From assembly GCA_030141605.1 (NCBI GenBank), contig JAQGDQ010002376.1, positions 106,422-170,421 of the forward strand: a stretch of 64,000 nt of DNA. The letters run 5' to 3'. Positions 8,901-35,900 of this stretch are shown here, piece by piece. Every line of letters begins with the position of its first letter. Position 1 is the stretch's first letter. The position numbers and the translations under genes were made by a program. The DNA is from Tubiluchus corallicola. Lineage: Eukaryota > Animalia > Priapulida. Below the pieces are notes generated by a model. It had not been told where the DNA came from, did not search any database, and was given only the letters and a program-made list of their open reading frames with translations.

Positions 8901-11900
8901 CAATTCAAGTTTCTCATCTTTAAAAGTAGCAGGTACGTATTCCAAAGCACGTACAGTTTCAAATTCTAAAGCAATGTCATCAGTCTCGGGGAGAGAAGCA
9001 CGAGACAAGGTGTCAGCCATCAGCATGGTTGCTCCTTTCCTATATACTACTTCAACATCATAGTTTTGCAGCACCAACATCATGCACTGTATTCTCTTAG
9101 GAGCACTAAGTATGCTCTTCTTGAGTATGGATTCTAGAGGCTTGTGATCAGTTTCCAGTTTTACTTTACGAGCGTAGCAGCAGTGGTCAAACTTTTGAAT
9201 ACCAAAAATTAGACTCAGCATTTCCTTTTCAAGTTGCGCATAGTTCTGTTCGGTTGCAGTCAAAGTTCGAGAGGCGAATGCAATTGGTTGACCATTCTGC
9301 ATTAGACATGCACCTAAGCCTGACTGACTGCTGTCACATTGCAGAGTAAGTTTTTCATCTGGGTTGTAATATCTGAGCACGGGAGACGTAGTTATGAGCT
9401 TTTTAACCTGTGCAAATACCTCTTGTTGTTCAAAGTTCCATCTGAATTCTGTTTTGTCAGACATTACGTTACTAATAGGTTTAAAGACTTCAGAAAGCAT
9501 AGGCAAAAACTTTGCCAAGTAATTGACAAAACCACACAGTCTTCTTACTCCCGTCTTATCGATTGGAGCCGGCATATTTTGCACCGCTGCGACCTTGTCG
9601 GGGTCAGCTTTAATACCATTAGCACTCAGAATATGCCCGTGGTATCGCACTTCACTACGTTGAATCTGACTTTTATCTGGATTCAGTTTTATATTTCTTT
9701 CACGACATCGTTCAAAGAATGCTCTCAGTTTGTTGTTATGGTCAACACCGGCTTCTGTAATGGTAGCACCACAACCATAAATTAGTACGTCATCATGGAA
9801 GTCTTCTTTTCCTTTTAAGCCTTGTATTTGCTCATCCATTTTCTTCTGAAAAATCTCAGGCCAAGCTGAAATCCCAAACGGAGCTCTAGTATAACGATAT
9901 CTACCGAACGGAGTATCAAATGTTGTTAGATCTTTGGTCTTTTCTTCTAGCTTCATGTGATGAAACCCACTTGTCACTTTGAAAGTAGAAAAGAGCTTCG
10001 CATTGCACAGTCTAGGAGTAAGCTCCTCCATTGTAGGAATATGGTAGATTTCTCGTCTGATAGCATTATTCAGTGGTTTAGGATCCAAGCAGATTCTGAT
10101 ACTCCCCGAACGTTTAGTAGCAGTTGTGTAAGCGTTAACCCAGTCAGTAGGGTGGTCTGCACGTTCAGTGATGTTGTTTTGTTCGAGTCTGTCAAGTTCA
10201 GCTTTAAATTTATCTCGCATGTTATAAGGAAATCGCCTACATGGTTGTACAACTGGCGGTACAGTAGGATCAATTTTCAAACTTACACATCCAGGGAATT
10301 CTCCTGGTACCTCACTGAAAATATCAGAAAATTCAGTTAGTAAAGCATTACAATCAGCAACACTACAAACATCTGAAACATGTGCTGTAGGCCTAGTACT
10401 GCTATCACTACACAACATATTAGCAACATTGGCTGATTCAACCCTTTTGAAGTTATTTTCATTTACAGTAATAAGCTTCATTTGTTGTGAAGCACGAGAA
10501 CCTAACAATGGTACATAATTTTCGTTTACGACCAAAAAGTTCACAGAGTAACTTTTCTTATTCACTGGATTTACAATTGGCAATCTGACTTGCCCAATGG
10601 GACTTATTTTAGTTATGTTCCACATTTCTAACACAGTCTTTACAGTAGAAGTTTATCACACAAGTGATGCGGCACAAGTCTTTCAGGTATAATGTTTATA
10701 CTGGCCCCACAATCGATCTGAAAAATCGTAGGTGTACCCGCCATAAGCCATTCACTGTAAATCTGAGGCTGTTGCGTGGTACACTGTTCAGCATCATGAA
10801 CAGTATGAGTTACAGTTCCAATCGCATGCTCATTCGACTGTTCCTCACAGTTTGCCATGTCAAAGACAATTTGGCTTCTTCTCGACGGAAATGATTTTGC
10901 ACGAGTGTCAGTTCTACCTCTAGATTTGCACATAGACTGAAAATGATTTTTTCCATGGCAAATGTTACATGTTTTGCCATAAGCAGGACATTTATTTTTG
11001 TCCCATTCATGCTTACGCCCACAGAAGTGACAGTCAATCACCTTTTTCTTAGTACCCGTGGCTTTACTAGCACTACCTTTATTAGTTTTGGGTTTGACAG
11101 CTTGCACTTGTTCAGAGTAGGAAGCTTGTTCAGCCTTTATATTTTTAAGTTGACTTGCAGACTCAGCAAACGAGCGACAAATAGTTATGCAGCTACTCAA
11201 TGTTAGTTTTGACTCTTGCAGTAGTCGCTTACGAGTAATATTGTCAGTTATGCCTAGAACTATCCGATCCCGTATCAGACTATCAGTTAGATTGCCGTAA
11301 TTACACCTTTTGGCTAGTGTGCGCAAAGATGAGACATAGGCGTCGATTGTTTCACGAGGATTTTGATCGCGTTTATTAAAACAATATCTTTTGTAAGTTT
11401 CATTAGTTTCTCCAACACAAAATGCTTCAAATTTTTGTAGAACCATTGCAACATTTGTTTTATCTGCCTCATTTTCAAATTCTAGTCCATCAAAAATTTC
11501 CACACACTCAGGACCCAAAACGGTCAATAATGTGGCTGTTCTAACAGCATAATTTGCTTCATTGAGCTTCAAAGCCACCTCATAATTGTCCCACATGCGA
11601 CGAAATTTTCGCCATTTCACAGCTAAATTTCCATGCAGGTCTAGTCTAGGTGGTGCAGGTAGAACACTATACGGGGAAGTAACTTGAATATGACCTTCGC
11701 CATCAGCCATTTTATCCTACCACAGTCTTCCCGAGAGAAATTTTGGCGTTACTCAAAGAAGTGATGTTATCAGCGTATCCGTAGTTAAGCACTCGCTGAT
11801 AACTTCCATCCGTACTACCATGTAACGTCTTGGCAACATTTGTAACTTTGTTAGAAACTTTATAGAACATTTAACATAAATGTTTCTTGCTTATTAATCT

Positions 11901-14900
11901 GTTTATTCACAAAGACTGCTGCCATGATAAGTCTAGAGAATGTAACGCCTAGTGGCTTGCCCGCTGAAAACAGTGAGGGGAAACCTTAGTGAGCACAAAC
12001 ATTAAAATATAAACCATAGATAAGAACACGTCACAAGTGTAAGTCAATTTTAATGATGCAGTCTGCCGCTTGAACCAAATCTGTACATTGTTGTAAAGCC
12101 AACCCTTACGTCCTAGCTAATTAAAAATAAATTAATTTAGGAACGATGTAAAGGAAATGCTTACCACACATGCGCATCTTGCATACTGAAGTCCAACTAT
12201 TCCATTAACTCTACGCTAAAGTCCTATGATGGGATAGCTATACTAAAACAATAAAAATACTGGCATGTTGAAAACTAAAATTAACACAATGAAACATTTA
12301 AACAGTACAGTAATTAGTAAAACACTTAAACTATAAATCATGATTTAGCACTCTGGAACATCTATAGAAATCGACTACAGTACATGTTAAATAATGGCTT
12401 AGACAAACCACATGATGCACATAGACATTCATGTATAGCTGGGCCAGCATTAACCCAAGTTGAATACACGGCAGCATTTCTCTCGCGGATAGGCCTAGGT
12501 CTAGGAAAAAACAATGCTGTCGCTAATTGTGATTGGACAATTTCCGATTAAGCCACGTCTTCATGCGCCCCGTCCGAAATTGTATTGAGTCTGATTTCAG
12601 ACGTTGAGTTGGAAAATGCCGTGAATGCTTACAGCTGCTTTGCTGCGTAATGTAATGGTTTCGCAAAACCTATAGCCTACCGACGTTATAATACAATATG
12701 GGTGCAAAATATTATTATGATAAATATTAGCAATAATAGTTAATTATTATAAATATTTACAAGTGCTTTTTACATCGTAATAATTTTTGGAAATTAGAAG
12801 GCATGCAGTGCTTGCATGGCATGTATGGACTGCACGCCACTGCTGTGCAGAGTGCTCATAATATTAGCTCAAAATTTTCAAAACTAATTTTAGATTCTGG
12901 AATTATTAATGGAAACATGCTTTAATAATCTTCACATGTCAAAGATCAGAGGGAGAGAACAAAAGTGGAACAGGGAGAGAGATAGAGAGAGAGAGAGAGA
13001 GAGGGGTGGGTAGAGGACTGGTAGAGAAATAGCAAAATGAATATATATATATATGAAGCGTATATGTACTGTGCATTTGAAAATCTGAAATTTATAGTTG
13101 CAGTTTGTCAATATGCCACCAGTCGGAAAAGCACGTATGCCAAGGCCTAACACGCAGTTGACAGGCATTCCAAATCTTCCACCTATCCCCAAACCAAGTA
13201 TTTGTGTTTACGAAGCTTCACCATTATACAAGGTAGACTTAGACTAGAAAATTAATATTTACTATGTGGTTTAAACTTGTTTTGACTTTTGAGTGAGCTG
13301 TATGTACTTTTGTTGAAACTTTTTAAATTCAATGTCTCTTTGATTATACTTATTCACAAAGTTTCATTTCAAAAATTTACTAATTTTGGATGTAATCATT
13401 GTTAATAATCTCAATTAACATTATAAATATCTAAGGAATAATCAATGCTTGACATTTTACTTATTTGTGATCATAATATCAATAGTTCAAGACTATTGTA
13501 AATGACGGCATAAACACACAATTGATTGAAGTTTGAAATTTGTAAAGCCGGAAATGTGGTTTCAAAATCTGGAACACCGTCTAGTTTTGAACTATGAACT
13601 CTTTGCTAACAAGGCAAGTGCCATAAACCACTAAACTGTCTTATTCCCCAGCAATTGTGACAGTCCAAAGTACATCCCTTGTAACTTGCTGACCGGTTCA
13701 GCATTTCCAATGTCAGATCACTCCAACTAGAGTGATTCTGGCTAATTAGATTAATTTTGATTTTGATTTTGAGCCTGAAATTCCCATGGGCAACTAATTA
13801 ATTATTTATAATCTTAATAGTTAATATGCATTGGGTGTAAGAGTCACGCATTTTAGGCTTTGTTGTTTTCTCGAGCCCGAAAACCAATAAATCGCGACAC
13901 TCGCATATTTTAGATCAAGCACAGATCTTATCCTTGTTGCCTCCGTCTTCTTCTGAAACTCATCTTAGAATGTAAATTATTTGTTTACTAAATTTAGTTA
14001 CTAAAGCTTCCACTTTTCATTCATCTCCATTTTCTTTTGTTGAGCAAGTTAGTGCAAATGTTTCATATTTTCCTCGATCAGTTAGCAACAGTTGAAAGAA
14101 ATTAAGTACCAGTAGGTAATTATGCATTGTTATTTATTTTATTCTAATACGTTCTAGTCAGAAATTTATGTTCCTTTTATTATTTGCCTCATACATGTAA
14201 TAACTTGTGGTAAGTTATTAGGCTTAATCTGTTTTTAGGCTGCAGCTCTTGGATTGAGACAAAAGTAAGTTGAGAAAATGAGATACTGCAAATTGTAATC
14301 ACAATATTTAATTAGATTATGTTACATCTGAAACCTAAACTTGAAGAAGCTCATCAGTATTTAAGTAGGCTTAATATAGTGTATTCGGGAACACTTAAAT
14401 TTAGCTTGCATTTAAACCTTCCAACATGCACTCAAAAGAGTATTATAAAATACACTGGCTCTGCCCGTACTCCTATCGTGAGGTCATTTACCCCTACACC
14501 CTGTAACTGAATTGTAACGTCTCACTCAGTTGGTTCTCTACTCTTGGCAGCTCTGCATCAATGTTATTGCTAATGATGGTACAAACCCATTGTCCAAAAG
14601 CATTGTAAATAATTAAGTAATTGCTCTTTAGAATTTCAGGTTCAGCTATCAGAACTAATAAAAACAAAATTTTAGAATCTAAATAGCTAGAATTACCTGG
14701 CATGAGTAATATAAATCAGAAATCCTGAAATGTTTGGCTAGCGTTGACTTTGAAATGTCATAATCACCGGGGTAGCATTACTTATTCCCATACTTATTAG
14801 CATTACTTAATCAATAATAATTATCTACACTATAATATACTATAATGCTATACTATAAGATATTATAATAATCAATCTTTGATGACATTTTACAGACAAT

Positions 14901-17900
14901 TGAGGCGAAGATGACACATCCACCTATTTTAGCTAGAGCTCCATACACACTGGCAGCTCCATGGAAAGAGCAGAGGTACTGCCGGACTCCTAGTGAGTCT
15001 ATAGGAAACAATTTTACCCCCGCAGCTGCAAAATATCAGCTAAAGTCACTAGCGGGTCAGCGAAGAAAGGGGGCAGAGTTGCGAAAACGGACGAGTTTGG
15101 TCAGAAGTGTAAAAATACCGTCTCTTCAAGCTGCAAAGCGAAAAAAGAAGAAAATGGCTGCAGAAAGGCATGTAGTAAATTTGTTGTTTCTTAGTTTGGC
15201 ATGAATTATATGCAAAATAAGTTAGAGGTTTATTCATTGGCCTCAAAATTTTGAGTATGAGTTGTATTTATTATGTTCAGTTATTCTCTATACAGTGCCA
15301 TGAGACCTTATAATTCGCTAAATTTTACAATTCCTCACACACACGAAATTAATTCGTGAAGATTATTAGGACAAGGGTGAGCGTTAGGGTTGGGGTTAGG
15401 ATTAGGTTAGCGGTTATGGTTAGGTGAGTGTAAAGATTAAGGCTATGGTTAAGTTGGATTAGGGTTAGGGTTGGGGTATTTAAATTGTTTGGGGAATTGT
15501 AAACTCCTTCCTTTTAACTCATAAATATATAGCCTATTTGTGGTTCTTAATTTGTGGAAATTAATATTATCATTTATTTTATGTGGAATTTGTCAAATCT
15601 AAATAATTCTTATAATAACAAAAGGTAAAAACCGTTTCAGATACCAATGAACAATGGCAATTTACATGTTATCAGAGGCGCTCAATTTCATAGAATGTTT
15701 ATGTTTGAATTTACTAAGCAGCTTATTCTTTGCTAGGACTGTGGTTTCTATTGCACTCTTTCAGTAAAAAATCATTTGAAAGTCACATTCAACTTATATA
15801 AAAAAATTGGCTATATGCATTGTGCACCAAATAAATGGTGATTTGCATACATTATTGTTTCAGATAGTTGTTTACAGAATTTACAATATCTTGTTTGTCA
15901 CCTCACCAAATGGTCAATCAAATGTCACCAAATGTCTTATTGAAAGCCTGAGTATGTTTTATTAACGAATGAAAAGTGGTGGTGTTCCTATCTTTGCAGG
16001 GCTGCTAAGAAGCAGGCTATTGAAGCAGTTAGTCGTCCAATGTCACCTGTGTTGCAGCGGGATATTATTCTTACGAAGTGTCAGGATGCAATTGTCGATC
16101 AAACTTTGACAGACTTTGAGGTTTGTATCTTTCATTTTTACTTTTGCCTCTAGAGCACTGCTTGATAAAATTCTATTGTCATTATGTGGAATGATATTAG
16201 TGAAGAAAGAGATGAAAACTGCATATGTAGACGAAAGGCAGGTGTGCTTAGTTAGCATGTTTTCATTGTTACAACATACACTTTCCCATAACATGCAGCG
16301 TATATATATATATATATATATATAAGCCTTTAATATCAATATGTATAAAACTTTTCAAGGTCATTTGGTAAACCACATTTGTGAAATGTAGGGTTTTCGC
16401 TTATCATGACTTTTTGTGTTTTTAGCGGTATTGTTACTATATTAATGAAGGTGTGCGTGACAGTGATCTAGCAGTTCAGCCACTGGAACTGATGCAGAAT
16501 GCATTGTTGCGCTTAGGAAACAGTGTGCCTCCTGTGGGCAAACAGAAGAAGCTTCATGCAAAACTTGCTGCTGAACTGAACGATCGATACAAATTTAGTG
16601 TGAAAAAAGCCATAGGTAATCTCCACATTGCATTGGGTAACAATGTTGATTTTGTGCGTTATTCTTTTATGAGAAAAGAAGCTTACCAATTGGTGTATAT
16701 ACACATTAGTTAACTGATACCAGAATATTCACATATTTGTCAATTAATTCATTTACGAAGATCAGCAAAGGCAGCTTCCTGGCAAAATGCTTTTTTACTC
16801 GCAAAATATAACTGTTTTGTACAAATGAAAAACGTTAACTTTTTAAATGGAAAAGTGGTTGTTATTTTATAATCAGTTAAACACATTTTTAATTGAATAG
16901 TTGTTAATTTGAACTTTTTTACTTTTTCATCTTGGCTTGAAATTGCAGTGGAAAGCAAATATGTTCACTGATATGCCTATTGTTTTTACAGCAGATGTGC
17001 CGAATATTTTATTTTAGTTCTTTTTATTTGAATTAGTGGATTATATTTTGATGGATGAGATAGAACGAATTAGACTGCAGATATACGAACTGCCAATTCC
17101 GTTCCCAGACAGGTATTACTTCCTCACCTTCATTCTTCATTAGTTTTGTTGAGTGACATTGTTTGTGACTGACTGGATGGGTGCTTTCATGCAAATGGCG
17201 TGTGTTGAAAACTAGCTCACTTTGGGCAGTACCATTCATAAACTACTGGCTGTTTACCTCATAGAAGGAGGATATATTGCGAACGTAGCTGTGACACATC
17301 TGCCAGTTAAATGGCTCAAAACAACATAGAAGGACTTCCTTGATAATGAGGCAGGCTCCAATCTCACTACAAATATCTCGTTGAGTAGATCCTGCTGTTA
17401 AACACTGGGTTCCAGCTTGCAGTGCATGAAATTGTATAAAAAAAGTACAAAAAATTTGCATTTTCTTCTCGAAAAACATATTTATAAACTGCTGAAGAAG
17501 CAAATGTTGAAATTTTGGTTGGTATTACTTTGGTTGCTGTCATTGCTCTCACTTTGGCAGCATCTACATTTTGTGAATGTGGGTTCTTCTTACATTACAA
17601 TAGAGTATGTACAACATTTATAATAGTTTTCCTGACGCTAGGCCGCTACTGACAATTAATATATAGTGCTAGTTACCTTGAGGCATTGTGAACCATACAA
17701 TAAGTAATTCACAGTGCAATTTGAAAAAAACTATTGTGAATTTTAATTGTAAAAATTATAGCAACATAATTAATGCCTCTTATCGCCAACTCAGAATATA
17801 ACTTGGATGATGACAGGAAATCCTATCATATTCAATTATATGCATTTGATGATGTGGAACTAGCTTACTCCTAAATAAACTTTTTTCAATATTATCAATT

Positions 17901-20900
17901 TGCCTCTGCTGGAATTTATATTAGATTTAAAATAGTGTGTTAGTAGCTGTTGTTTATCCTCGTGGAATGCAAAATGCTAACTTAACAAGACGAAATTCAA
18001 ATTAAACAAATAATCATAAAGTCCAACTGGGTTTTAATTGAATGTGTTTTTTATTATTCAGTGACTGTATGAGAAAGTGGTAATTATTCTAGCATTATGG
18101 CTGGACAGGGAATGCTCATTGGTTGCGACCACATACTTCATTTGTTACACTAGTAGTTATACCATTTCAGGGTGATTCGTGCACCTGTGCCATGGCATGA
18201 ATCATATCACGAGTCAAAGCTCTTAATGGAGATACATTTATTTGCTTCTAATGTAGTTATGCAAGAGTTACAGCGTTTATTTAATGAAAAGTAAGTAAAA
18301 TAGTTTTAAGTATTGATTTTTCTTTATTATATAACAGCTTTAAATATTGTTGCCTGCAGCCTAAACTGTTGTAATTTTAACCAAATATTGGAAACATGGT
18401 GACGAAATAGGTACCTTCTTATTTACTGTTTCATTCTTTAACGCAGTTGCTTATAATTACAGTCTAGTATCATTGAAATAAGCTATCTGACATATCTCTT
18501 GGTTTTTATGCAATTTCACAGTCAGATTTCACTAAATTTGACCATAGAGCATTTCAATCTTCTTAGCAGGTTGGGAAAATTATCAGTTTGCCATAACTAG
18601 TATTGATAACAGCATAGTTATTTTATTATTACTTGCAAACTAGAAAAGAAAGTAGAAGATTTTGCATACAAGTCCCGGTGAACTTAATTTAATGCTTTCA
18701 TACTTTTGTGTGATTGAATAGTAATTAATAAACTGTACTTCTTGCTATTGCTGGTGCCATCCTCACTCCTCAGCACTAAACTGTGAGGCTTGATTAATAC
18801 AGCTGATAAAAATATACAAAAGACGATTAACAACCATATTAATAAACAAATGATTTATTATCTGCATTATTTTTATTTAGGCTTTACAAGTTTTTGCTGA
18901 TGCCAGCAATGTTGTTTTATATTGGTTTATTGTCAATCAAGTTTTTTGCAAGCTGTCAATAAAATAACCATGATGTACTGTTTGTCCATATGGCAATCTT
19001 ATTTCTTCTAAACTTAAAGACTGCAAATGACGGATGTTTAATAATGTTACTATTTCATAGAGAAAGTGTGATAGTGTCATCTTACCAGAAAAATGCCATA
19101 AACTGATTTTGCATAATGATTACAATACAAGTTATTGTGATTTAAATGCATTTGCATTTAAAATAAAGTAAACAATAGGTTTTGCAATTGTAGGTATATA
19201 AAATTGAGGTTCGTTAGTTGCAAACAACTAGAGGAGTCAGAATTACCACTCCAACCAAGCAATTTTCAGAAGCTAATCGAATCCTATTGCAATGAAACTC
19301 GAACAAGGCTTCTAACGGAGTATGAGCTGTTATTTACGATAATCACAGATATTTAAATAACAAATATTATTTAGGATATGTACAAAAGTTTTTTGTGTGT
19401 GGAATAATGCAGAATATGAGCTTTCTATCTCAAAGTTTAGCTTAATTTGAGAATACTGTTGATGCCATAAATATCCCCCTACTGTCATGAGTACAGCTGG
19501 TGCTGTTGGATTGTGAGCTACAAGGGGGAAATCTCAGGCTGAATCAGTCATATTGACTGGTAGCATTGGTGCCAAGCTGTAAGACTGTCAACATTTGAGC
19601 AATTGAGCACTCATTGACCGATCACTAAACAGCTTATGAATTTAAGCACCTGAAATTGAGCGCTAGTTTACCAATCACTAAGTAGTATTATCTGAAATTG
19701 AGCACTCCGCTAGCCAGTGAAGTGTGGCGACACAAACTGCACTTTATTTACGCTGTTGCTATAGGTACCTCTTTCCTTCCTCGTGTCTTTCTGACATAAT
19801 AGGAGCATTTTTATAGTGTGTGAAAACAGTCGTAATTTTGACAAACTTCGAAATTACTTTGAATTTTTTTGTGTCAAAAAGTATATCAGAGTTTTGTACA
19901 GTATGCACTCGGGTTTCTGCTTAGCATTACGGTAAGCCAGTGAACATGTGACCAGAAGAAGACGCTAGTAGTTATACTACTATACAGAGTAAGATTACTA
20001 CTCTATTTAAAATTCAAGTCTTAATTTAAGCATTTCAACTAACTGACATTCCATTTAACTAGTCTAACTGAAAACTGATAACACAGCATACAAGAAGTTA
20101 AAAATGACAACATAAAAAGACACTATATTAAGACCAAAATCATGGCAAATTACACCCCCAACCCTGACACCTATCAGCATCAAATACAGTTAACAAATTC
20201 CCAAGCATTTTTTAAGGGTGTTCATATTATTTAAAATGTTAATGACTACAAAAGTCTGGTATGTATCATGTAATGAAAAGTGTAATCATAATAACAGCAC
20301 AATGAAAGTTAGTTAAAATTTCAAGTAAATAATAACACGAATGTTTAGTGAAAATAATAAATAAATGTTAATGTTACGACTTCACAAAAAATTGTTGCTT
20401 TGGTTTCTTTAAAAAACATTTTGTACTTAATACAATTGGCTTTAAGGTACAATACTTCAAGTTATAACACTTAAAGGTACAGTTCCATCCTGAAGTGCTT
20501 TGCGTAATGCAACAGTGGAGGCACCATGCTTAGTTAAGCAATCAGCTAGTAATCCTTTTCTGTGGAGGCACCATGCTTAGTTAAGCAATCAGCTAGTAAT
20601 CCTTTTCTGTAAGCTGTCAGTTTAACTGTCTTGATTAAGGTATATGTTACTACTGCCATCAGATGAAAGACTAATGCCACAGTACTTAAAGGCATCACTA
20701 TCCTCTTTGCCTACTTTGAATGCTGCATGGATCTTACTAATGATCATGGATTCAAAATTTGTGGTTCCACCGCAAATAAAGCACAAGCTACTATGCCAGT
20801 CACCGTTTCAGCATTATTAGTCCAATTAAATACTGTAGGATTCATCTTTGACATAACTCCATTATACTTGTTCATAACAGCTTGGACTCTGCGATACCAT

Positions 20901-23900
20901 TGTAATGATGAATTTGTGATACCATAAACACATTTATTGAGTTGTCGTAAAGTTCATTCACGGCTAGCTTCTTTTGGAGGTTTTATGTAGACATCCCTAT
21001 CAATCATTTCTCATTGTAGAAAGCAGTTTTGATATCCACTGAAAAGCAGTTTTGATATCCATTGAGTTCATCTTCCATCTACAGAGTGCAAAAATTGCAA
21101 TTATTACTCTCAGTGATTCATAAGCACAAGTAGAAGAGTCTCTTTGTATGTCTACATTAAACTCTTTAAATCCTCTCACTACTATTCTAGCTTTTGGCAC
21201 TATTCCATCAGGTGTGGATTTTAACGTGCATTAACGTGGATCTTCAGTTGCTTTAACTTTAGTTTTTTCTTGTTTACTTATATCATATGTCACCACATAT
21301 GTATTGGTTCTTGAAACATCACTGCTAAATCTAGTACAGTTCCAGCTTTCTTTAAAGAAGATTTGCTAAGTAACAGAGGAATGTCAGCTTTTACTACTTC
21401 GGCTGCAATCCTACAGCTCGTATTTCCAATTTTTGCCGATAAGTTCACTGTTTTGTATGAGTGCATCATACCATCAAAGTTTTTATATGCGTCATAAGTA
21501 CTATCCTTGCTCTCTTTTAAAAACACTCCATCCAATGTACTAAGAAGTGTCGTCATACCATCCACCTTATTTAAATTTTCAACTCTGATGCTTAAAGCCG
21601 CTTCTCTGGCCTTGCCAGTTAAGGTTAATGTCACCACTTAATGCTTGTTTCTTCGCCTCAAGTTCAGTTACTAACCGCCATATTTCCAATTTATTTTTTT
21701 GTGTGTGTCATATGCGTCCTTACTAAACTTCGTCAGATTTTTGTAGTTTCCTGCCTTCTTAAAAATTTATCAGTTATTTTTGGCAGCACTTATGTTGTCA
21801 GCTGAACTACTCTCTGCTGCCATGAAAACTGATAACACAGCATACAAAAAGTTAAAAATGACAACATAAAAAGACACTTTATTAAGACCAAAATCAGCCC
21901 CAACCAAGTGCTGACACCTATCGGCATCAAATACAATTAACATAACTAACCTTCAAAAGAGCTCATGCAATAATTTGTTAATTATTGCAAGAACGGTTAA
22001 CCCACTATTACTGTTGTTATCATTTTGTCCTACATTTCTGTTAGTACTAGGCATTCTTAACTGGTTCCCAGCATGATTCTATGCTATATATTTGTGAATG
22101 AAGGAATCTGACAAAATGTCCATCGCCCAAAAACCACTAATACTATTTTTTCTAACACCAACATTAATGTCACCATTTGTATCAGTATCAATATGCTTAG
22201 GAGCTGTCAAAACATGGACAACTCCTTTAGAATTGATTTTCCGTGTGTCTTATGCATCCTCACTAATCTTCAGTGGATTTTTGTAGTTTCCCGCCGCCTT
22301 AAAAATTTATTTAAGCGCTTTCGTAGTGATTTATTTAATCGAATCCATATGCAACATCAGAATTAAAAATCGTTGATTTAAAAAAATGTGTAAACAATTG
22401 CAAACTGTTATATCTAAAACATGCGACCTGCTTTTAAAAAGGTAGTACTTTGTGGTGTTTTTAGAGTCGCAAACTACCTCTACAACCTTGACTAAACTTC
22501 CATGCTACTAGTGTTGCACGATCCCATGAAAAGAAGTGCAGGCAACAGCCACTCACAACATCAACACCAGACTCTGACATGTGGCAGAAGTTCTTGCTAA
22601 AAAGCAAATTCTAAAGGAAGGTGGTGATCCTGCCAACAGAGAGTGGGTGTTGAGCTGCATGAGAATTCATTTTGGCAAATATGAAGGCCACACATTCTTA
22701 TGGCTTCTGCAGAATGATGCACTTTATGCTGTGTACGTGGTGAGCTAGCTCACAATTGATAGGTATACTAGGTAATGTGAATATAGGTTTTTATTTTAAA
22801 TTAGCTATTCTACACTGTATTGATTTTGTAATTGCAATTATGTCAATGCAGAATGATTGATTGTGTGCAGGTAAGTTTTGCAGTTCAAAAATTAATAAAA
22901 TTTGGGATTTAGTATTTTTTGTTTTCATTACTACTATTTCATTAAACTGGTGTGTTTCTTAACTTTTTCAAAGTGAGATGGCTTTTTATTTATTTTAGTT
23001 GTTAATAGAGAGATTTTTTGGAATATCAGGAATGACCAGTCTATTTCTCTTAGGTCGAAATGAAATCACGTAGGCCCAAGGAACCTGATGAACTTACAGC
23101 AAACAAAAATTGCTTGGAGGAATTCCTCAGACACTTTCCACTTGTGATGGATGAAGTAGCAAAAAGTATAGGTAGATGGGGAGAAGAAGAAAGAAGTGAG
23201 TGACTAGTATTGACCTCATCCTTAGCTAGTGCTGTTTTTATAAGTGCTGGAATTTTTCCTCAGCTTCTTGTAACTTAGCACTGAAAAATACATCTTTATA
23301 TAGGCAGTCACACATCATGAGGCTACAATAACCAAGGGTGTTGCATTTGAGCCTGTGGTATGCAGGCCGTTTTCTGCTATTGGTGCTTCACTGCAGCCTG
23401 CAAATGAAACTTTTTCTTGACCTTAGAAGAAGTAGAAGCTCAAATTGGTAAATATAAAATTTATTATTATTACTATTGTCTGTTTAGTTTAAAGACCTGC
23501 ATAAATTTTGGCAGCTAATTGCTATGTTGCTAACTCAACTAGCAAATAACGTAACCAAAAATAGAGTAACCCAACTTCTAATTGGTAAGTTGCTATGTTA
23601 TCTAAATTGCTAAGATACCAGCAACAAGGAGTTTACCTATTCCGGAAACCGCTGTTTCTTCAGTCAAGTGTGTTAACTGTTAAATTTTATGTTTCTGAGA
23701 GTATGAATTCTAAGAATCTGATTTCTGTCGTTTGAGTTAAATTTCCAAGGTTATTCAGAAACACAGCTAGTTAGCAAAAAATCACAACACTACATCCTCC
23801 AAAATTTGCTTTTTGTAGCATAACTGATGTAATAAACTTTTGTTGTGTATTAGTAATAACACCAGCATTATAAGCAAATTACATGATTAACTAGTAGCAT

Positions 23901-26900
23901 ACTGCCAAACTCATCAAATTATGTAAATTAATAATAGGTGGAACATGTTACTGCATGTATAAACTTTGGCTTTTTTATCCCTGCTCTCTATAGACTTTTG
24001 CTTTTTGCAAGGTAGCAAATGAAATAAGTTTTATTAGGTGCTTTAATTTCCATCCATTAAAATCGGTTATTTTCATGATCCAGTGATGCAAAGGCAACAG
24101 AGCTGATATTGCCAGAAGCTTGGGCCAATTATTTACCAGAATATAACCACTAGTGGCTGCCCAAGGCTCTGTTTGAAGGTAACCTTTGAAAGACTTGTGA
24201 AGCTGTTTTAAAGAAGCAGCAGAATAGCCTTTGGTTCTACCTACCTCATCCAAACTAAGTTGGCAAGTGTTGGACATCCACGTCTATTGGACATTGGCAC
24301 AGAGTGTCTTTGCTGCCAGGTAAACTAAGTTGTTTTATAATCCATTTGTAGGAACGATGGCCACAATTAATTTTGCAGCTTTACGGTAGCACTGATGTGA
24401 AATCATTTAAATCTACCATTCATCATAGCAAGCACTGACTAGGTTAAAATTTTGTCAACAACATAAAGAAAATGGGGCATTCGAATTTTTTTGGAGATGA
24501 CAAAATTGATCTCACAACAAATTCTTTAGCCTGCGAACATTTTTAAGTGACATTTGCTACTCACAGTTTCAAGTGACAACTTACTGTGAATTGTTCTGGT
24601 GGGACTTGGAGGCTTATGGTGGAACTTATTAAGGTTAATGCCCTAAAATGAGGTGTATTGACTATGTTTAGCTACAGAGACAGCATCTCTGAATAAGGCT
24701 AACAACCAGAATGAGTAAAGTGAATAAAGCTGCTCAGAGCTAGTATTTAACTCAATAGTCGCCCATCCATATACTGTCAAACCTGAGTATTGCTTAACTA
24801 CTGCTGCCAAATGCACATTGCTGCTTTAAATGGTGTACAATTTATGTATACCTTGCTATTGATTATAGACTTCATGACTGTGATTCTTTGCAGGTTACTC
24901 ACAAGCTAGCTGGTGCGGCTGCAGGTACGTCAGTGAGGTCGACTAATGTTGGCAATGAGCATGGTGAGATCTTGATGTCAGTCCTGACAGGTGGAAAAAG
25001 GCTCATACTAGAAACAGTGTGTCAAGCGTTGTGGCTTGGTCAAGCGTTGTGAAGTTGCGCAAGCATTGCCACCATGCTTGCTATACGTTAATCGGGACTG
25101 CTTTTGGCTTGTAGCAGGCCTTCGTCATTCAAGAAACATTTTGCTGAATGGAAAGATCTTGAAATTAGACTCCACATTTGCCACTTAATGTGTCGCATTG
25201 CTTTGGCATGTAGTACAGAAAGCCACCTTTTATACAAGCTGTCTATGAGCAAGTTTGCAACTTGTATATTTGAATGGGATAAGGAGGATGTTAACAACTT
25301 GAGAGAGGCTAAGCATTCAGAATTGAGGGCTGAAAAAGTTTTTGAGCTGTCAGATGAAGATATTTTCCATAAAATCACACCTAGTGGGTTACAACACCAT
25401 TGTAGAAGGCAAACTAGATCTCCAGAATCATCAAGACTAACATCGACAGCCTGATTACCGTGTTCGACTCGGAACACTAGGGAATACTTTTTGTAAACTC
25501 ATTGAAAAATTATATTTGTCAATTAGTTATGTTCTTAGATTGACATGTATACTTTAACCGTATTTTCCTTGAATAAATTTACAAATAACTGTGTGAGATT
25601 CACTGGTTTATTTTATCAGACTTAGACATTTTGCTGGTTAATGCAATTTTCTGATGACTTTCAAGTCTAATTTGGGAGCATAACTCCTACAAGCAACATT
25701 ACTAATTACTAATTTAATTTAGTATTGTTGTCCAAAATAAAGAATATACATGTACTATAAATCAGTGGGCAACAAATAGAGTCAATCTTGTATAAACTAT
25801 AAATAGCACTTTGATTTTATGTGAAAAACAAGTCAAAATTGTTATGTAATGATAAAAACACTTTGGGTTAATAATGCAATTAATCAACAACAAGAGTTAA
25901 ATACATTTTGATTTGAGTTCAACTTTTTGTAATTTGTGAACTATCATTGTATTCTTATATTTTTATATATATTTTTTGTTACTTTTTTACTAGTCCATGT
26001 TGTCTGCTGTGTGTTGTTGTAGCTTTTCGTAAAAATGTCTTGTTAAGAAAATTCGTATTGTTCTGGTACAGCATTCAAAAAAAAGTCAACAGCTGCTCAA
26101 TTGCGCCAGGTGCGTCACATGGATGACATCCTTAGCGCACCTGGCAGACCACGCGAGTACTAATCCCAGGTCTCTGGTTCAAATCCCGACTGGTCCACAA
26201 TTTTTCATCTCCTTTCTGCAACTCATTACTCACTATCAGTAATAATTGGTAAAGTAAACTGCAGTTGTTTATAAACATGCTGACAATTACAAACATAATG
26301 TAATTTATCCGTTGAACATCTCTTATTCTTTTCTGTGAGTTAGTTTTGTGTGCAGTCATCAGGTGTAGTCCATCCACATGTTTTTTCATCTCAATAAACA
26401 CTTATTTTTACTTTTACATTAACATTGGGATGACATATGAGAAAAAGTTAGAATACTGATAAATCAAAGTCTCACCCAAGAACAAATATTGTCCGTTGTC
26501 TTTTTAAGAAAATGTTTTATGAAGCATTAGCTGTCAGCCTATGATATTTATGTGATGGGTTCAATGGCTCAGTGGATAGTAGTCGTACATTCTTGTCGTA
26601 GTAATCGTAGTCGTAGATAGTAGGAGGTGAGCATTCTCTACCAGAAAGCGAACTTCAATCAAATCAAATTTATGACTTTTGAATTCGAATCAAACAGTAT
26701 TTCGAGATTTCCAGTCTGCACCGAATTCAAATTCAGCAATAAAGATTTTAAAATAAATTTTCAAATCATTAATAAAAAGTGGTCTCAGAAAGAACATGCA
26801 TGTTAGTTGTTTTTTACTCTACGGTAAAAACACTAATAATCTGTTTAAAAATTGGACACAGGGGTTTACAATTCCCCACACAAAAAAAATTAGTTCATGA

Positions 26901-29900
26901 AGTGGATCAGGGTTAGAGCTAGGGTTAGGGTTAGGGTTGGCTTAGCATTAGGGACAGTGTTAGGGTATTTAAATTGTGTGGGGAATTTTAAACTCCTTCC
27001 ATGCACAGAAATCACAGCTAAATTATACTGAATGTGTGCTGTTTCAAATGTTTTAAATGTAAACAACATATGTAGTTGAAGTGCTATTCAAATCCATAAT
27101 TTTAGGTTCAAATTGAATTCGAACTAATTCAAATTCAATGCTCATCTCTACCATACGCAGCACATCTGGGTGGTATGTGGCAGTGTTAGGTTTACCTTAG
27201 CTGCATACCTCTTAGAAGGAGGTGTAGCTAAATCTCTTTATACTCTCTACTTTGGAACTGAAAAAATTGGCATTATAAGTTGTTTAGCATTATAACAAGG
27301 TGCATTAATACCTACATGTCTATGCAAATGCAGATGTTTTGTTTTGCTAATAATTTGGACATTAAGCAAGGTTGGCATTATAAAGGGGGTGTTATAAGGA
27401 GGTTTTACTGTATGTACAGTCTTAGAGTAGTTCGTCTTAGAGAGGATATGCTTGCAAGTGAACTCAGTGATAGTCATGCTATAAACATCTCGTTGAGTAA
27501 GCCATGCCTTTGAATGCCGAATCCCAACTTGCACTGTGCCGAAGTATTTAAACAAAGCATAACTGAGCGTCGTAAGCGATTCGTGACTAAACCTTTCTTA
27601 TACATCATTTCAGGTGGATTCCTGACTGTGCAGAAATGTTTCGCAAACTTGCTGATCGGTGGAGTGATTTGATTCCGCGTCGCAGAGGTGGATGCAGAGA
27701 GCTAGTTGAGGAGTTCTTCAGATGTGCAGATTCTCTCATGTCAATCCAACTAAGGTTTCTTTTGAACTGGTCATTGGAGGAATTTGTCCAGTTTCTTGAC
27801 ATGTATCAAGTAATGTTTGTTTTAATTAGTTAGTCAGTTAATTGGTGCAGTATGCTTTTTTGCTTGTATTCTATGGCAGATTATTACATTTTGAGCACAA
27901 TATGATCTTATATTGTTCCTTAAGTTGTAACTTTGAGGTACTGGAAACAGTCGTTTATAAAACAGAAACACTTAAATTATGTGATAACTGTCAACAACAA
28001 ATATTTGCTTAAAAACACTTCAGTTTACAATTAACTTGCCTTCTTGCTTGTTTAATATTATGACAATTTACGAAAAGTGTCAAATAATGAGTCAAAATAA
28101 TGCATTTTTTAAAGCATTTAATTTTCGGCGTTATAATATTGTGGATTAGTGAAAGTAAGCAAGTAGTGAAAAATGTGTCCAGTCAGTGTACATCTACTTT
28201 GTATGCATCTACTTCACCTAATCTTAATTAGAGATCAGAAATTCAAGGCACACTTGCTATACATTTCCCATCAAACACAGAAATTCCATCAAACTCATTT
28301 AAATTTTTTTATTATATTAACATTCTTTGAGTTCCTAATGCACAGTATGAGCATGCATAATGTTAATGTTGGTGAATATAGTTAGTTGTAAATACTGAAC
28401 AATTTATGCTCACTATATTTTGTTTCGTTTTTTCCCTATCATCTTTTACTTTTTTAATTGCATGCTGTATTTTCTTACGTGACATACTGAATAAGTTTGC
28501 CTGGGAAACTGTGATATTTACAAAGCCTACTAAAGTTACATATTTATATATATTTCTTATCCTGACATAATGTTCCACTCCATATTTCAATGCAGGGTGG
28601 GAATGATTTTGGGACAGAGTTTGATGAGTATGCATTCTTAGAGCGTTCACCACTAGAAGTAGATTTGGAGATCAAAGAGAGTGACATCTGCTTCATCCCT
28701 TCACTAGATGTTTGTCAAGAGTACATCAGAAGTTGCTTTCTGACTATTATAAAAAGCGGCGAACACCTGCCAAGAGTAAGAGTTAGACTGTTAATAGCAG
28801 TGAGATTCTTCTTTTACCATAAAGTATTCACCAAACTTTTATTTCTCCTTAAAAGTGTTATTTGCTTAAAAGTGTTTGTTGACAATCACATTTAATGTAT
28901 ATTTATAGTAACTATTCCTCGGTTCTTATAGAAGGTACATGATATAATTACAACTTTAACTAAGTTCTGATGGTGCATTTGGATTTGGTCAATAATTAGA
29001 GGCATTTCTAGGTAGAGCGACAATTATTTCCCGAAGTGAAGGATGATGATACCTTGTGCTTAAAGCCAGTGACAATTAACGAGCTTGCTGTGCAAAATTT
29101 AATGGATCATGCACTGGAAGTTTTTGACAGAAATCGTCATGGACCAAAAAAGTATGTTCGTGGCTAGTAGGTTCGAGTTCAAATGTTCGAATCGAATTCC
29201 AACTTTCAAATTCGATTCGAACGAGTTTTTTGTCCGTTTGAATTCATTTCGAACCTAAAATTGTAGATTCTAATAATTCAGTGCTTCAACCACATACGAC
29301 ATTTATCATTAAAAGGCTTGAAACATCATGTAATTAGTACAATTTAGCTGCAATTTCTGTGCATATTTTTTAAACAAATTGTTTGTGTTTTTACTGCAGA
29401 TAAATCAAGCAATACGCATGATCTTTGCAAGACCGCTTTTTACTTGTTGTTCGAAAACTTGATCGTAAATCTTTGAAACTCAATTCAAGTTCGATTCGAA
29501 TTCGAATGTCACAAGTTTGATTCGATTCACCTTCTGGTAGAGAATGCTCACCCTTTGTTACTAGCAGTTCAATAACTCACCTATTGTTACAGGTGTTAAG
29601 CGAACTCATGCTTTTATTTGGCAAGCTGTTTCTTGGTTTGTTTGATGCTTAAAGTAGCAGTTGTTCAGCTTTGTTTGTTACAAAGATGATTTTTAGCTGA
29701 AACAATGCAAAGAATTTCTTCATATGCTCTCTAAATACAGATGATCAGAATTGCTCGTGTAACTTAATATTTTTGTTTGGTTTTACATGTCATTTTTGGC
29801 AGTAGTCCTAGTTCACTGCAGAAATATGCTTCCCTTCTTGTAAAACTGAACTACTAACTTTCCTTTGATGTAAAAAGCAACTATTACATGCTGAAAAATC

Positions 29901-32900: not shown

Positions 32901-35900
32901 ACTGGCTGTCATCTTTATGTTCTTAACCTTAATAACTCCATACAAATAACGAAAATCAGATCATTACGAATAAATGTGTTGAGTATCTTAATGTATTATT
33001 ATTGTTATTATTGTACATTAACACAACACAGACACATAGTACATTGGTAATATAAAAAGTTACATATTTTAATGATACTTACAATAATTGTATTGATGGT
33101 GAGAAATATGGTGAAACATATACATTACACACAGAATAATACAATGGAAATTTAAGAAACAAAGCAATGAAAAGACAGAAATGATTATCATTAACTTTAA
33201 CAATTATAATTAAAAACACCATAAAATTATTTGTATGTAGTTAATCCTTCATGATAAATGTTAAGATTTTATTCAATTCAGTTGCAAAAAGAGAAGTCTC
33301 TTGCTTCTATAGTACTTAAAATATCTACAGGCAAGAGATAGTTTAGAAATTTGGTCCTCAGTAAGTATGCATTCCTTTTTAAATATGTGTAATTGTACAA
33401 GTTTTGGCTTAGATATATTCCGATGCAAAATCTGTATTGTATTGTTGGCATATGTATTTCACATTATTTCCCATACATGATAAAACTGAATAACAACTTT
33501 GTCGAACAAAAAAAGAAACCAGACTCTTATCGCTATGTTAACATGCATAAAAGAAGTTTACATATCTTGCAATTATTTGAATGCCAGGCTTTATCACATT
33601 GAAAATATAGAGCAGAGAATGCTTCAGTGGCTTTCTTGGAAGTTTTTATAGCTGTCTCACACCTATATTCCACATATATATCATATAGGTAATTCAATAT
33701 AGCAATATTTTATTATGTGTTCCCTTTATAGTTTATCACAAATGTATTACCTATACAAGGGACTGATAGCAACTTTTTCAAATTATTTTTCACCTAGTTA
33801 ACATTTTTTAGTATGAAAGTTTTCTAAATTTCACATGTAAATGATATTTTAGATATATAAAGGAATATGAGAAATTCCAACACTTACTTACTGAGGAAGC
33901 AGAAGATGATGTAAACAACTTTCTTGATGCACGACATAATCTCAATGAATTTCGACAGGCGAGTATGAAGATTAGCTGTGATTTAACATTTTGTTCAAAA
34001 AGTACGAGATTTTGCATGAAATGTCCGTCTGCTTAAAGTTTACTCTTTTCTTTTGCTACAATATATCGTTATTACAGTACAGAGGCTTTTACATCTATAA
34101 ATTGATGGAAAAGCATTAGTTGTCTGTTTTGAATTTCAGTGTGTCAAGAGGAGTTTACAATTGCCCACATAATTTAAATACCCTAACCCTAACACTAACC
34201 TTAATCCAATCCTATCCCTAACCCTAACCCAATCCTATCCCTACTCCTAACCCTGATCCTAATCCACTTCACAAACTAGTTTCTGATGTATGGAGACTTG
34301 TAAACTTTAGCCTTACAAATGTCTTGAATTTCAGTGTGTCAAGAGGAGTTTACAATTCCCCACATAATTTAAATACCCTAACCCTAACACTAACCTTAAT
34401 CCAATCCTATCCCTAACCCTAACCCTAACCCAATCCTATCCCTACTCCTAACCCTGATCCTAATCCACTTCACAAACTAGTTTCTGATGTATGGAGACTT
34501 GTAAACTTTAGCCTTACAAATGCCTTACTTACTCTTTTTTGATTATAGAAAATTACTACATATGAAAACTTGAGATATCAGATCATAACTCTGCTAGTTG
34601 ACGTTCCGCTCAGTCTCATTAGTATAAATGCACAAGCTGTAAACCACGAGCTTGCACACCGAGCACAGGAAATGAAAAAAGCACTTATTGCTTTTATAGT
34701 GGAGGAGACCCGAGCACTAAATCGCAAGTACGTTGTGCGTTTATGCATGAATAGACTGTAGGCTATTGAACTGTAGGTCATTTCTTCCAGATCTTTTGAT
34801 ATTAAGAGCAAAAACTTACGCCACTATTTCCTTTAGAATCCACTAGATTGATGTGTTGTAGGAAATGAGTGAAAGGAAACATGGCATCACAGTGAATTTT
34901 GACAGCATCGTGTATGAAATTAAAACTATAAGTAAATTAAAGTTCCACAAATGTGGAGCCAAACGCTATTACAAGAACAATAATATGATTATAGAATGTT
35001 GAATATATGAGTTACTGGAACATCTTTTTTCTGTAAAATGGTGTGATTTTGTTTAGAAATTGGATAACAGTAATTGTATATATACTTTTTAAAATAATTA
35101 TAGAGTTCGCAAAGGTCTATACAGTGTTCGCTTCGTCATTATATTCATTTTGCTTCTTTGTAATTATACAGGAATGCAATTGAAACTTTCAAAATTTGCA
35201 TAGTATTATTACTCCTCAGAACAATCCCTCTGTACTACTAATGAGGTATGAGCGATTGTGTTGTAGTTCTGTTACTTTTGTTTATACTTTCCGATCATAT
35301 TAAAAGAAGTGCCACTTATTACTTTTATTATTGTGGCATTAATTTAGGATCAGCTCAGAGTATGAAAGTATTTCTGAGCATTTAAATGACGTGCCTGATA
35401 CAACAGAAGAACTGGTGCAGCTAGAGGAATTCTTACGTGTGGTATGTAGGTCTTGGCATTTTCTTTGTTTTTTAAGAAAAAATAACTTTTTAAGTAAATA
35501 TTAAGCTTCGTTTATTAAACTTTCCTTGAGGACGAAATAACTTTACAACTATTAAATTTTAAAAAGTTTTGGATTCGGTTGGACTTTGAACCATTAATCT
35601 TACATGTCTAGTGCTATTACTATTAAACCACACAGCCCCTTGTCTGTCAGTCAAATGTGAAATCAATCACAATAACTCACCAAAGCAATGCACCTTTTCT
35701 AAGTCTAAACTTATTGGAATACTTTTTAACTAGTTAGATAATTTTTTGTAAGTGTAAAAATGCCCATAGCTGCCCAATTGCATGAGGAACTAGTACAAAA
35801 CTAATATATTTTCTGAAAGAGAATCTTTCTAGCACTGTAAATAAAATGCTTAGATTTTTTATTTGATTGAACAATTAACGGGATGATATGAAAAGTCTGT

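What the first reader, a model, noticed from the sequence alone, without database searches (positions are those of the whole stretch)
19554..26197. Dada-like transposon inserted in the A box of a tRNA-derived element; removing it re-forms a 72-nt tRNA layout
Seen in sequence: joining 19554-19560 to 26133-26197 gives TGACTGG TA GCGC ACCTGGCA GACC A CGCGA GTACTAA TCCCA GGTC TCTGG TTCAAAT CCCGA CTGGTCC A. That is 72 nt with tRNA spacing, A and B boxes, and an acceptor stem whose halves now lie 6.6 kb apart. The insert is flanked by TAGCAT / TAGCGC (an imperfect 6-bp duplication starting at tRNA position 8) and carries a decayed transposase. Established knowledge: Dada DDE transposons target Pol III/small RNA genes (U6, U1, tRNA A boxes) and make 6-7 bp TSDs. 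Inference: the protein motifs ([28 protein letters not shown], LYVxRDC, RLxxxH) match my recollection of Dada/DUF6729 proteins. The target here looks like a degenerate tRNA-derived repeat rather than a functional tRNA, which suggests a Dada family using a SINE-type repeat as its landing site. I do not know of a description of this family.
Basis: partly seen in the sequence, partly recalled or inferred. Interest (0 to 1): 0.85.

Follow-up and report, generated by a model that had tools for sequence, protein, structure and literature searches.

The report
Dada transposon splitting a tRNA-like repeat
A dead copy of a known tRNA-targeting jumping gene (Dada) sits at the usual spot, tRNA positions 8-13, but inside a high-copy tRNA-like repeat of an animal genome that is likely not a working tRNA gene, and other copies of the same jumping gene likely sit at the same spot of that repeat.

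Summary
Window 19567-26132 is a decayed, internally deleted Dada transposon. Its protein remnants match relatives (best E 5e-30) that carry DUF6729 and Dada's published motif spacing. The remnant has lost its catalytic residues and carries a nested Copia-like LTR remnant.

From the window alone the re-formed tRNA is weak (6 of 500 random flanks score as well). Contigs of public runs settle it: uninterrupted repeat copies carry the window's left flank directly against 26133 (24 of 30 letters in one contig). About three other, diverged element copies show the same junctions, with only short overlaps on one side.

Insertion at tRNA nt 8-13 with a 6-bp duplication is published for Dada. New is the target: a high-copy, non-canonical tRNA-like cassette (ACT anticodon, short variable arm) with a shared 5' palindrome and a T5 terminator, which argues against a plain SINE. 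Dedicated targeting, by-catch from real tRNA genes and co-amplification of one insertion are not yet separated. The scan noted Dada tails on broken tRNA-Lys genes in another genome, but not this target.

The parts
19464..19540 (+). 5' palindromic part of the target repeat (long hairpin)
   Evidence: Fold z -3.2 (+) and -4.4 (-) for 19464-19560 against 200 shuffles; summed contig depth 44,242 at 19497 against about 181-192 in the flank in X1; contigs join it to the cloverleaf
19541..19553 (+). Linker of the repeat, upstream of tRNA nt 1
   Evidence: Part of the 24-of-30 match to an uninterrupted X5 copy (table 7)
19554..19560 (+). tRNA-like nt 1-7 (acceptor 5' strand)
   Evidence: 6 of 7 pairs with 26190-26196; same stub in loose ends of uninterrupted copies
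19561..19566 (+). Left target-site 6-mer TAGCAT (tRNA nt 8-13)
   Evidence: Sequence; position matches Dada-tY/tK/tN/tR/tS sites
19567..26132 (+). Decayed, internally deleted Dada transposon, 6,566 bp including nested insertions; no terminal inverted repeat
19601..19706 (+). Subterminal direct repeats with CC(A/G)ATCA motifs
   Evidence: Families D13 and D8; motif twice in 19567-19760 and never in 19760-26132; CCAATCA repeats open fish Dada-tY, tR and 5S sequences (by eye)
20069..21942 (-). Nested, heavily deleted Copia-like LTR retroelement; LTRs 20069-20195 and 21823-21942; 4-bp TAAC duplication
   Evidence: LTRs 85% identical; TG..CA ends on the minus strand and flanks; RVT_2 E 1.4e-4 and 2.9e-5, below the Pfam cut-off; an X1 contig skips 20070 to 21974 (table 5c)
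22569..22763 (+). Transposase remnant, N-terminal part
   Evidence: tblastn to P0080 residues 48-97, 42%, E 2e-9; profile E 1.6e-11
24079..24264 (+). Transposase remnant, start of DUF6729
   Evidence: Pfam E 0.0088, below cut-off; profile of relatives E 5e-5
24891..25439 (+). Transposase remnant from just after the first catalytic D to about 110 residues past the second; frameshifted; second D reads N (25090-25092), D of DxxH reads H (25173-25175)
   Evidence: phmmer best E 5.1e-30; profile E 1.5e-41; alignments
26133..26138 (+). Right target-site 6-mer TAGCGC (tRNA nt 8-13)
   Evidence: Sequence; loose ends of uninterrupted copies read TAGCTC or TAGCTT here (table 7)
26133..26197 (+). tRNA-like nt 8-73: A box, ACT anticodon loop, 4-nt variable loop, B box, acceptor 3' strand
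   Evidence: summed depth up to 48,288 against 187 single-copy in X1
26201..26205 (+). T5 run (Pol III terminator-like) 4 nt after the discriminator base
   Evidence: Sequence; 72 X1, 30 X3 and 48 X5 contigs align through it to 26207 (table 7)
26206..26300 (+). 3' part of the target repeat
   Evidence: Depth above single-copy level up to about 26303; family contigs align to 26253-26282

Best explanation
Window 19567-26132 is a dead, internally deleted Dada DNA transposon lying at tRNA positions 8-13 of a high-copy tRNA-like repeat, where its transposase likely inserted it by recognising the A-box sequence, and several other copies of the family likely sit at the same site of that repeat. Mechanism, inferred from Dada biology (PMC3706591, PMC8869645): the DDE transposase binds the TAGCTC+AG A-box motif and the sequence downstream, makes a 6-nt staggered cut at nt 8-13, and inserts the element with its CCAATCA-repeat end next to tRNA nt 1-7. 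The repeat offered hundreds of dispensable copies of that motif, so the family could land there at little cost. Afterwards this copy lost most of its DUF6729 region and its C-terminal half, its catalytic residues mutated, and a Copia-like element inserted into it. Shown: element limits, protein family, empty sites, nested insertion. Inferred: cut chemistry, independence of the other insertions, and that the repeat is not a functional tRNA.
For: Protein: 535 relatives at E up to 0.001, best 5.1e-30; 21 of 22 scanned (of 150 listed) carry DUF6729. P0032 has CCCC 358/363/396/399, D533, D601, DxxH 624-627, E786 and CCHC 1290/1293/1303/1312, against 389/394/429/432, 567, 635, 811 and 1359/1362/1372/1381 in Dada-U6_DR; D-to-D spacing is 68 in both and the CCHC steps are identical. 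Site: nt 8-13 with a 6-mer, as for Dada-tY/tK/tN/tR/tS and four Perkinsus families; uninterrupted copies read TAGCTC then AG, the tY/tK target. Empty sites: joints and loose ends in X1, X3, X5 and X6. Other copies: three other X1 contigs over 19680-19712; an X1 and an X3 piece aligned from 19549 to 19818 (43 and 42 differences); three X1 contigs listed at 26140 reaching back to about 26108; an X1 piece 26109-26197 with 14 differences. No terminal inverted repeat; length minus the LTR element about 4.7 kb, at the low end of the published 4.7-11 kb. Target not a canonical tRNA: G at 32, ACT anticodon with a short variable arm, and 165 of 287 X1 contigs under 90% alike.
Against: The other copies overlap the flank by only 12-18 letters (left) and the element by about 24 letters (right), below the tool's 31-letter rule for bridging; their far flanks were not seen. 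The two 6-mers agree at only 4 of 6. No row at 26137 suggests that the other element-bearing copies share the G at nt 12, which fits element-side replacement (as for Dada-tY and tA) but equally one founder insertion. Contigs joined to canonical tRNA genes would largely fall below the 80% cut-off, so by-catch cannot be excluded. The tree does not place this copy in any lineage. Depth is no copy number and overlapping contigs inflate it.
Confidence: 0.68

Rival explanations
1. The family's real targets are canonical tRNA genes with TAGCTC (Lys, Tyr, Phe and others), as for fish Dada-tK/tY. The repeat is hit as by-catch because it keeps the same A box and outnumbers the genes.
For: Dada-tY uses two tRNA types, and one Dada-tV copy sits in a hAT element. 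The repeat's D-arm matches the human tRNA-Lys-CTT primer printed in PMC12635633 (by eye). An unchecked scan note reports Dada tails on broken tRNA-Lys genes elsewhere.
Against: In X1 the depth at the element's last bases (about 1,380) continues almost wholly into 26140 (1,264), and the listed bridging piece stays over 80% alike through 26197, which a canonical tRNA would probably not do.
Confidence: 0.15
2. One ancient Dada insertion into one repeat copy was later multiplied passively, together with the repeat, by segmental duplication or by whatever DNA-level process spreads the repeat. The shared site then says nothing about repeated targeting.
For: The other element-bearing contigs appear to share the unusual G at 26137 (no variant row). 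The repeat looks DNA-amplified (shared 5' palindrome, T5 run).
Against: The other copies are about 84% identical at the left end, lack the Copia insertion, carry family-majority letters at 26140, 26149 and 26152, and do not extend into this copy's private letters at 19541-19546. Replacement of the 6-mer by an element-borne one is published for Dada.
Confidence: 0.13
3. The target family is a functional, non-canonical Pol III tRNA-like RNA gene, so this is ordinary Dada behaviour in a multicopy small-RNA gene.
For: Majority letters read by eye restore full pairing of the D, anticodon and T stems and improve the acceptor stem; the T5 run is kept in most contigs.
Against: Copies are dispersed and divergent (165 of 287 under 90% alike to this copy, itself decayed); G32 and an ACT anticodon on a short-arm body fit no standard identity (established knowledge); no Rfam or default ARAGORN call.
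Confidence: 0.04

Closest known systems
A-box-targeting Dada lineages Dada-tK, tY, tN, tR, tS of fish (Kojima 2022, PMC8869645) and Dada-tIA, tIB, tY, tG of Perkinsus marinus (Kojima and Jurka 2013, PMC3706591)
   Same: Insertion at tRNA nt 8-13, 6-mer duplication, target TAGCTC followed by AG (tK, tY), no terminal inverted repeats, CCAATCA repeats at the end next to the 5' tRNA part (seen for tY), imperfect or replaced 6-mers, same transposase landmarks in relatives.
   Different: Target is a non-canonical tRNA-like repeat cassette and not an annotated tRNA gene; host is likely an invertebrate (inferred); this copy is dead, deleted and carries a nested LTR element; lineage placement not resolved.
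Dada-tV_OL copy in the non-autonomous hAT-N16_OL (PMC8869645)
   Same: A Dada element inside another repeat.
   Different: That is one stray copy of five at an anticodon-type site in a non-tRNA element; here several copies appear to share an A-box site in a tRNA-derived repeat.
tRNA-derived SINEs (general knowledge, recalled; tRNA-Lys-related heads are common)
   Same: Dispersed, high-copy, divergent, tRNA-like A and B boxes, a 3' extension.
   Different: About 90 nt of shared sequence upstream of tRNA nt 1, a T5 run right after the cloverleaf, and no tail seen near 26300.
Ty1/Copia LTR retrotransposons (nested passenger)
   Same: TG..CA LTRs, short duplication, weak RVT_2 matches.
   Different: Only 1.9 kb left; 4-bp duplication; no family assignment.

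Membership tests
Dada superfamily | Transposase homologous to Dada, with DDE triad, C/DxxH, N-terminal CCCC and C-terminal CCHC at the published spacing | tested here: met
   Met in the relatives at about 40% identity to the remnant. Named Dada proteins were not aligned directly: the 2013 alignment file cannot be read here.
Dada superfamily | Intact catalytic residues in this copy (autonomous element) | tested here: not met
   First-D exon and CCCC not detected, second D reads N, DxxH reads HxxH, E and CCHC absent. One other X1 contig reads G at 25173, keeping that Asp.
Dada superfamily | 6-7 bp target-site duplication (may be replaced) | tested here: met
   TAGCAT / TAGCGC at nt 8-13, 4 of 6 identical; empty sites carry one copy. 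Imperfect; a 4-bp reading cannot be excluded.
Dada superfamily | No terminal inverted repeats | tested here: met
   None among the 25 longest of 437 inverted pairs joins the two ends; ends compared directly.
Dada superfamily | Site-specific insertion in a multicopy small-RNA gene, repeated across copies | tested here: inconclusive
   About three other contigs per end share the junction but with overlaps under 31 letters on one side.
A-box Dada lineages tK/tY/tN/tR/tS | Phylogenetic placement with these lineages | tested here: inconclusive
   Quick tree of 46 rows (45 of 101 well-covered relatives): long branch 1.62, no supported group; relatives carry no target labels.
Canonical tRNA gene (target) | Standard score, pyrimidine at 32, anticodon consistent with body, near-identical copies | tested here: not met
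   ARAGORN 88.3 at lowered threshold; G32; ACT with a 4-nt variable loop; divergent copies.
tRNA-derived SINE (target) | tRNA-like head, dispersed high copy number | tested here: met
   Depth about 250 times single-copy in X1, many different flanks.
tRNA-derived SINE (target) | Element starts at the tRNA 5' end and has no terminator before its 3' tail | tested here: not met
   Shared palindrome 19464-19540 upstream; T5 at 26201-26205.
tRNA-derived SINE (target) | LINE-like 3' tail and variable-length target duplications around whole repeat copies | not testable with these tools
   No assembly held; contigs cannot be extracted.
Ty1/Copia (nested) | TG..CA LTRs, short duplication, RVT_2 | tested here: met
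   RVT_2 below gathering score; empty site in another copy.

The most novel reading that the evidence does not exclude
A Dada family has specialised on a selfish, DNA-amplified tRNA-mimic cassette (5' palindrome, complete cloverleaf with an ACT anticodon, own terminator) of an undescribed repeat class: a target-specific DNA transposon that parasitises another repeat, which in turn acts as a sink sparing real tRNA genes.
Probability: 0.3. Interest if true: 0.65.

Novelty: new variant of a known kind. Interest (0 to 1): 0.42.

Why it matters
All Dada families with defined targets in the two papers read are tied to functional multicopy RNA genes, explained by copy number and sequence conservation. 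A family living in a decaying tRNA-like repeat would show that A-box sequence and copy number are enough, without a functional gene. It gives a natural test of sequence versus Pol III-factor recognition, since hundreds of variant targets exist in one genome. The repeat itself is an odd, apparently undescribed cassette. The mechanism and the insertion site are already known, and this copy is dead, which limits the surprise.

Tried and rejected
No assembly is held for the window. Word-indexed protein search with the 120-aa frame found nothing among 280 candidates; full HMMER did. A 20-nt repeat pattern had 0 matches in metagenome contigs. The Dada alignment found no locus in viral contigs (45 pattern matches, none confirmed). 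It gave 80 metagenome loci (best 80 of 190), but they shared only coding DNA with the window and showed no credible flanking tRNA half; most are too short to hold element ends, and the two default ARAGORN calls looked spurious (one of them, L073, inspected). Rfam gave no credible family for either flank; I considered a ribozyme for the 5' palindrome and found no support. No RNA holder was listed and X6 is only guessed to be RNA, so expression is untested. X5 and X6 show no cover of the element ends, but they also lack the flanking DNA, so this says nothing on polymorphism. The tree was uninformative. The Atlas search returned MULE-named and DUF6729 clusters, a lead only. A 3-letter likeness of the element's 3' end to Dada-tR ends was too short to use. 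A printed full tRNA-Lys sequence was not found; only a 5'-half primer was compared. Rejected: chance join (empty sites exist), assembly artefact (both junctions in contigs), 127-bp repeats as Dada features (they are LTRs of a passenger).
Full report
Setting. The window is AT-rich eukaryotic DNA. Exons of an axonemal dynein heavy chain most like DNAH3 lie on both sides of the finding: 18172-18288 matches residues 322-357 weakly (E 0.008), 40737-40970 matches 815-889 (E 5e-16) and 52102-52350 matches 1346-1412 (E 9e-22). The feature is therefore inferred to be intronic. No assembly is held.

Observation. The join by coordinate gives 72 nt with the stated 6-mers. On its own it is weak: ARAGORN score 88.3 at a lowered threshold against 77.3 for the interrupted form, 6 of 500 random flanks as good, and 5 of 14,900 upstream positions meeting both the pairing and the 6-mer criteria. 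Six public runs were listed and four were laid. The left flank and the cloverleaf part are both high-copy in X1 (summed depth 44,242 at 19497 and 48,288 at 26184-26195, against about 187 single-copy; depth is not a copy number). Five listed joint rows link 19507-19540 to 26133-26179, and the letters between resemble the window's linker and tRNA start (tables 5 and 5c). An X5 contig aligned from 26133 carries 30 upstream letters that match 19531-19560 at 24 positions without gaps. Uninterrupted copies thus exist and fix the insertion between nt 7 and nt 8, with nt 8-13 present twice.

The element. A single frame 24894-25451 read through its stops finds 535 proteins at E up to 0.001, best 5.1e-30. 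Named cluster members come from molluscs, a crinoid, a hemichordate, amphioxus and fish (10 of 150 looked up), and 21 of 22 scanned carry DUF6729. In 53 relatives of 550 aa or more the conserved residues reproduce the landmarks given for Dada-U6_DR: in P0032 the zinc finger steps are 5, 33, 3 (published 5, 35, 3), last C to first D 134 (135), D to D 68 (68), second D to E 185 (176), CCHC steps 3, 10, 9 (identical), with DxxH after the second D. The window keeps three stretches: 22569-22763, 24079-24264 and 24891-25439. The zinc finger, the first D, the E and the C-terminal half were not detected; the second D reads N and the D of DxxH reads H. The copy is dead. There is no terminal inverted repeat. 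Subterminal direct repeats with CC(A/G)ATCA lie at the left end only, as in fish Dada-tY, tR and 5S sequences (by eye).

Passenger. 20069-21942 is a separate Copia-like remnant on the minus strand: 85% identical TG..CA LTRs, a TAAC duplication, weak RVT_2 matches. An X1 contig carrying another element copy skips 20070 to 21974 with letters matching 21951-21973, so it lacks this insertion. Without it the Dada remnant is about 4.7 kb.

Other copies. At 19680-19712 three other X1 contigs carry shared differences (611 of 792 depth). One X1 and one X3 piece align from 19549, twelve letters into the flank, to 19818 at about 84%. At the right end three X1 contigs listed at 26140 reach back to about 26108, and one piece spans 26109-26197 with 14 differences. 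Another X1 contig covers 24412-24989 with 72 differences, and one reads Asp at the DxxH position. The best reading is about four copies in X1, all at this site, but each overlap is shorter than the tool's 31-letter rule on one side and both outputs were cut to their best rows. Uninterrupted copies read T at nt 12, whereas no variant row appears at 26137, so element-bearing copies likely share G there. Replacement of the 6-mer is published for Dada-tA and tY, but site preference or one founder insertion would give the same picture.

The target. Majority letters read by eye (G at 26149, T at 26152, G at 26175, A at 26192, and G at 26153-26154 in loose ends) restore the D, anticodon and T stems and improve the acceptor stem. 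The loop has G at 32 and anticodon ACT on a 4-nt variable loop, which fits no standard tRNA identity (established knowledge). The D-arm and the next letters match the human tRNA-Lys-CTT primers printed in PMC12635633, but that D-arm is shared by several tRNAs, so a Lys origin is a lead only. Copies are divergent: of 287 X1 contigs 10, 28, 84 and 165 fall in the bands 99+, 95-99, 90-95 and under 90%. Two features argue against a plain SINE: a shared palindrome upstream of nt 1 (z -3.2 and -4.4) and a T5 run at 26201-26205 through which most contigs align. A transcript ending there could not carry either extension, so amplification as DNA is inferred; its mechanism is unknown.

Comparison and novelty. 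Kojima and Jurka 2013 (parts 1-3 of 4 read, plus Figure S4) and Kojima 2022 (parts 1-3 of 5, passages, supplement parts 1, 107, 108 and search passages) describe insertion at nt 8-13 with 6-bp duplications for five fish lineages and four Perkinsus families. The 2022 main text never uses the word SINE and reports one stray copy in a hAT element. Searches (listings only for other papers) showed no report of Dada in a tRNA-derived repeat. Figures, the 2013 alignment file, most of the 2022 dataset and Repbase were not seen and may hold such a family. Earlier scan notes hold nothing near this place or like this repeat; one unchecked note reports Dada tails on broken tRNA-Lys genes in another genome.

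Verdict. A real, dead Dada element at the known A-box site (about 0.95), in a non-canonical high-copy tRNA-like cassette that the family likely uses repeatedly (about 0.68). New variant of a known kind; interest 0.42.

Noticed in passing
window 19464-19540: X3 loose ends (before 19474, 3 contigs; behind 19534, 6 contigs) suggest that the 5' palindrome unit is sometimes iterated head to tail, with the junction a few letters into the tRNA-like start.
   Followed up: no
window 25773-25861: A very high-copy segment of about 90 nt (depth 49,778 at 25831 in X1) lies inside the element's right part; probably another nested repeat.
   Followed up: no
window 22237-22310: 82% identical to 21697-21770 inside the Copia remnant but outside the LTR pair; likely a second fragment of a related retroelement.
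   Followed up: no
window 20515-20608: Perfect 47-bp tandem duplication inside the Copia remnant.
   Followed up: no
window 7653-11716: Nearly intact Gypsy-like LTR retrotransposon frames on the minus strand (885 aa and 358 aa), with 215-bp direct repeats at 7328-7538 and 11821-12035, 95% identical; family judged by eye.
   Followed up: no
window 26626-27500: Cluster of further high-copy repeats right of the target, one with degenerate TTAGGG-like units at 26900-26960 and copies at 15317-15508 and 34149-34512.
   Followed up: no
window 16426-63802: Exons of a DNAH3-like axonemal dynein heavy chain on the plus strand host these insertions.
   Followed up: partly
window 26161-26207: Loose ends in X5 and X6 show a second repeat subfamily with a different D-arm and anticodon-stem start joined to the same 3' half.
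   Followed up: no
L001-L080: Dada-like coding regions are common in eukaryotic contigs of metagenomes (190 confirmed stretches); their ends were mostly not captured.
   Followed up: partly
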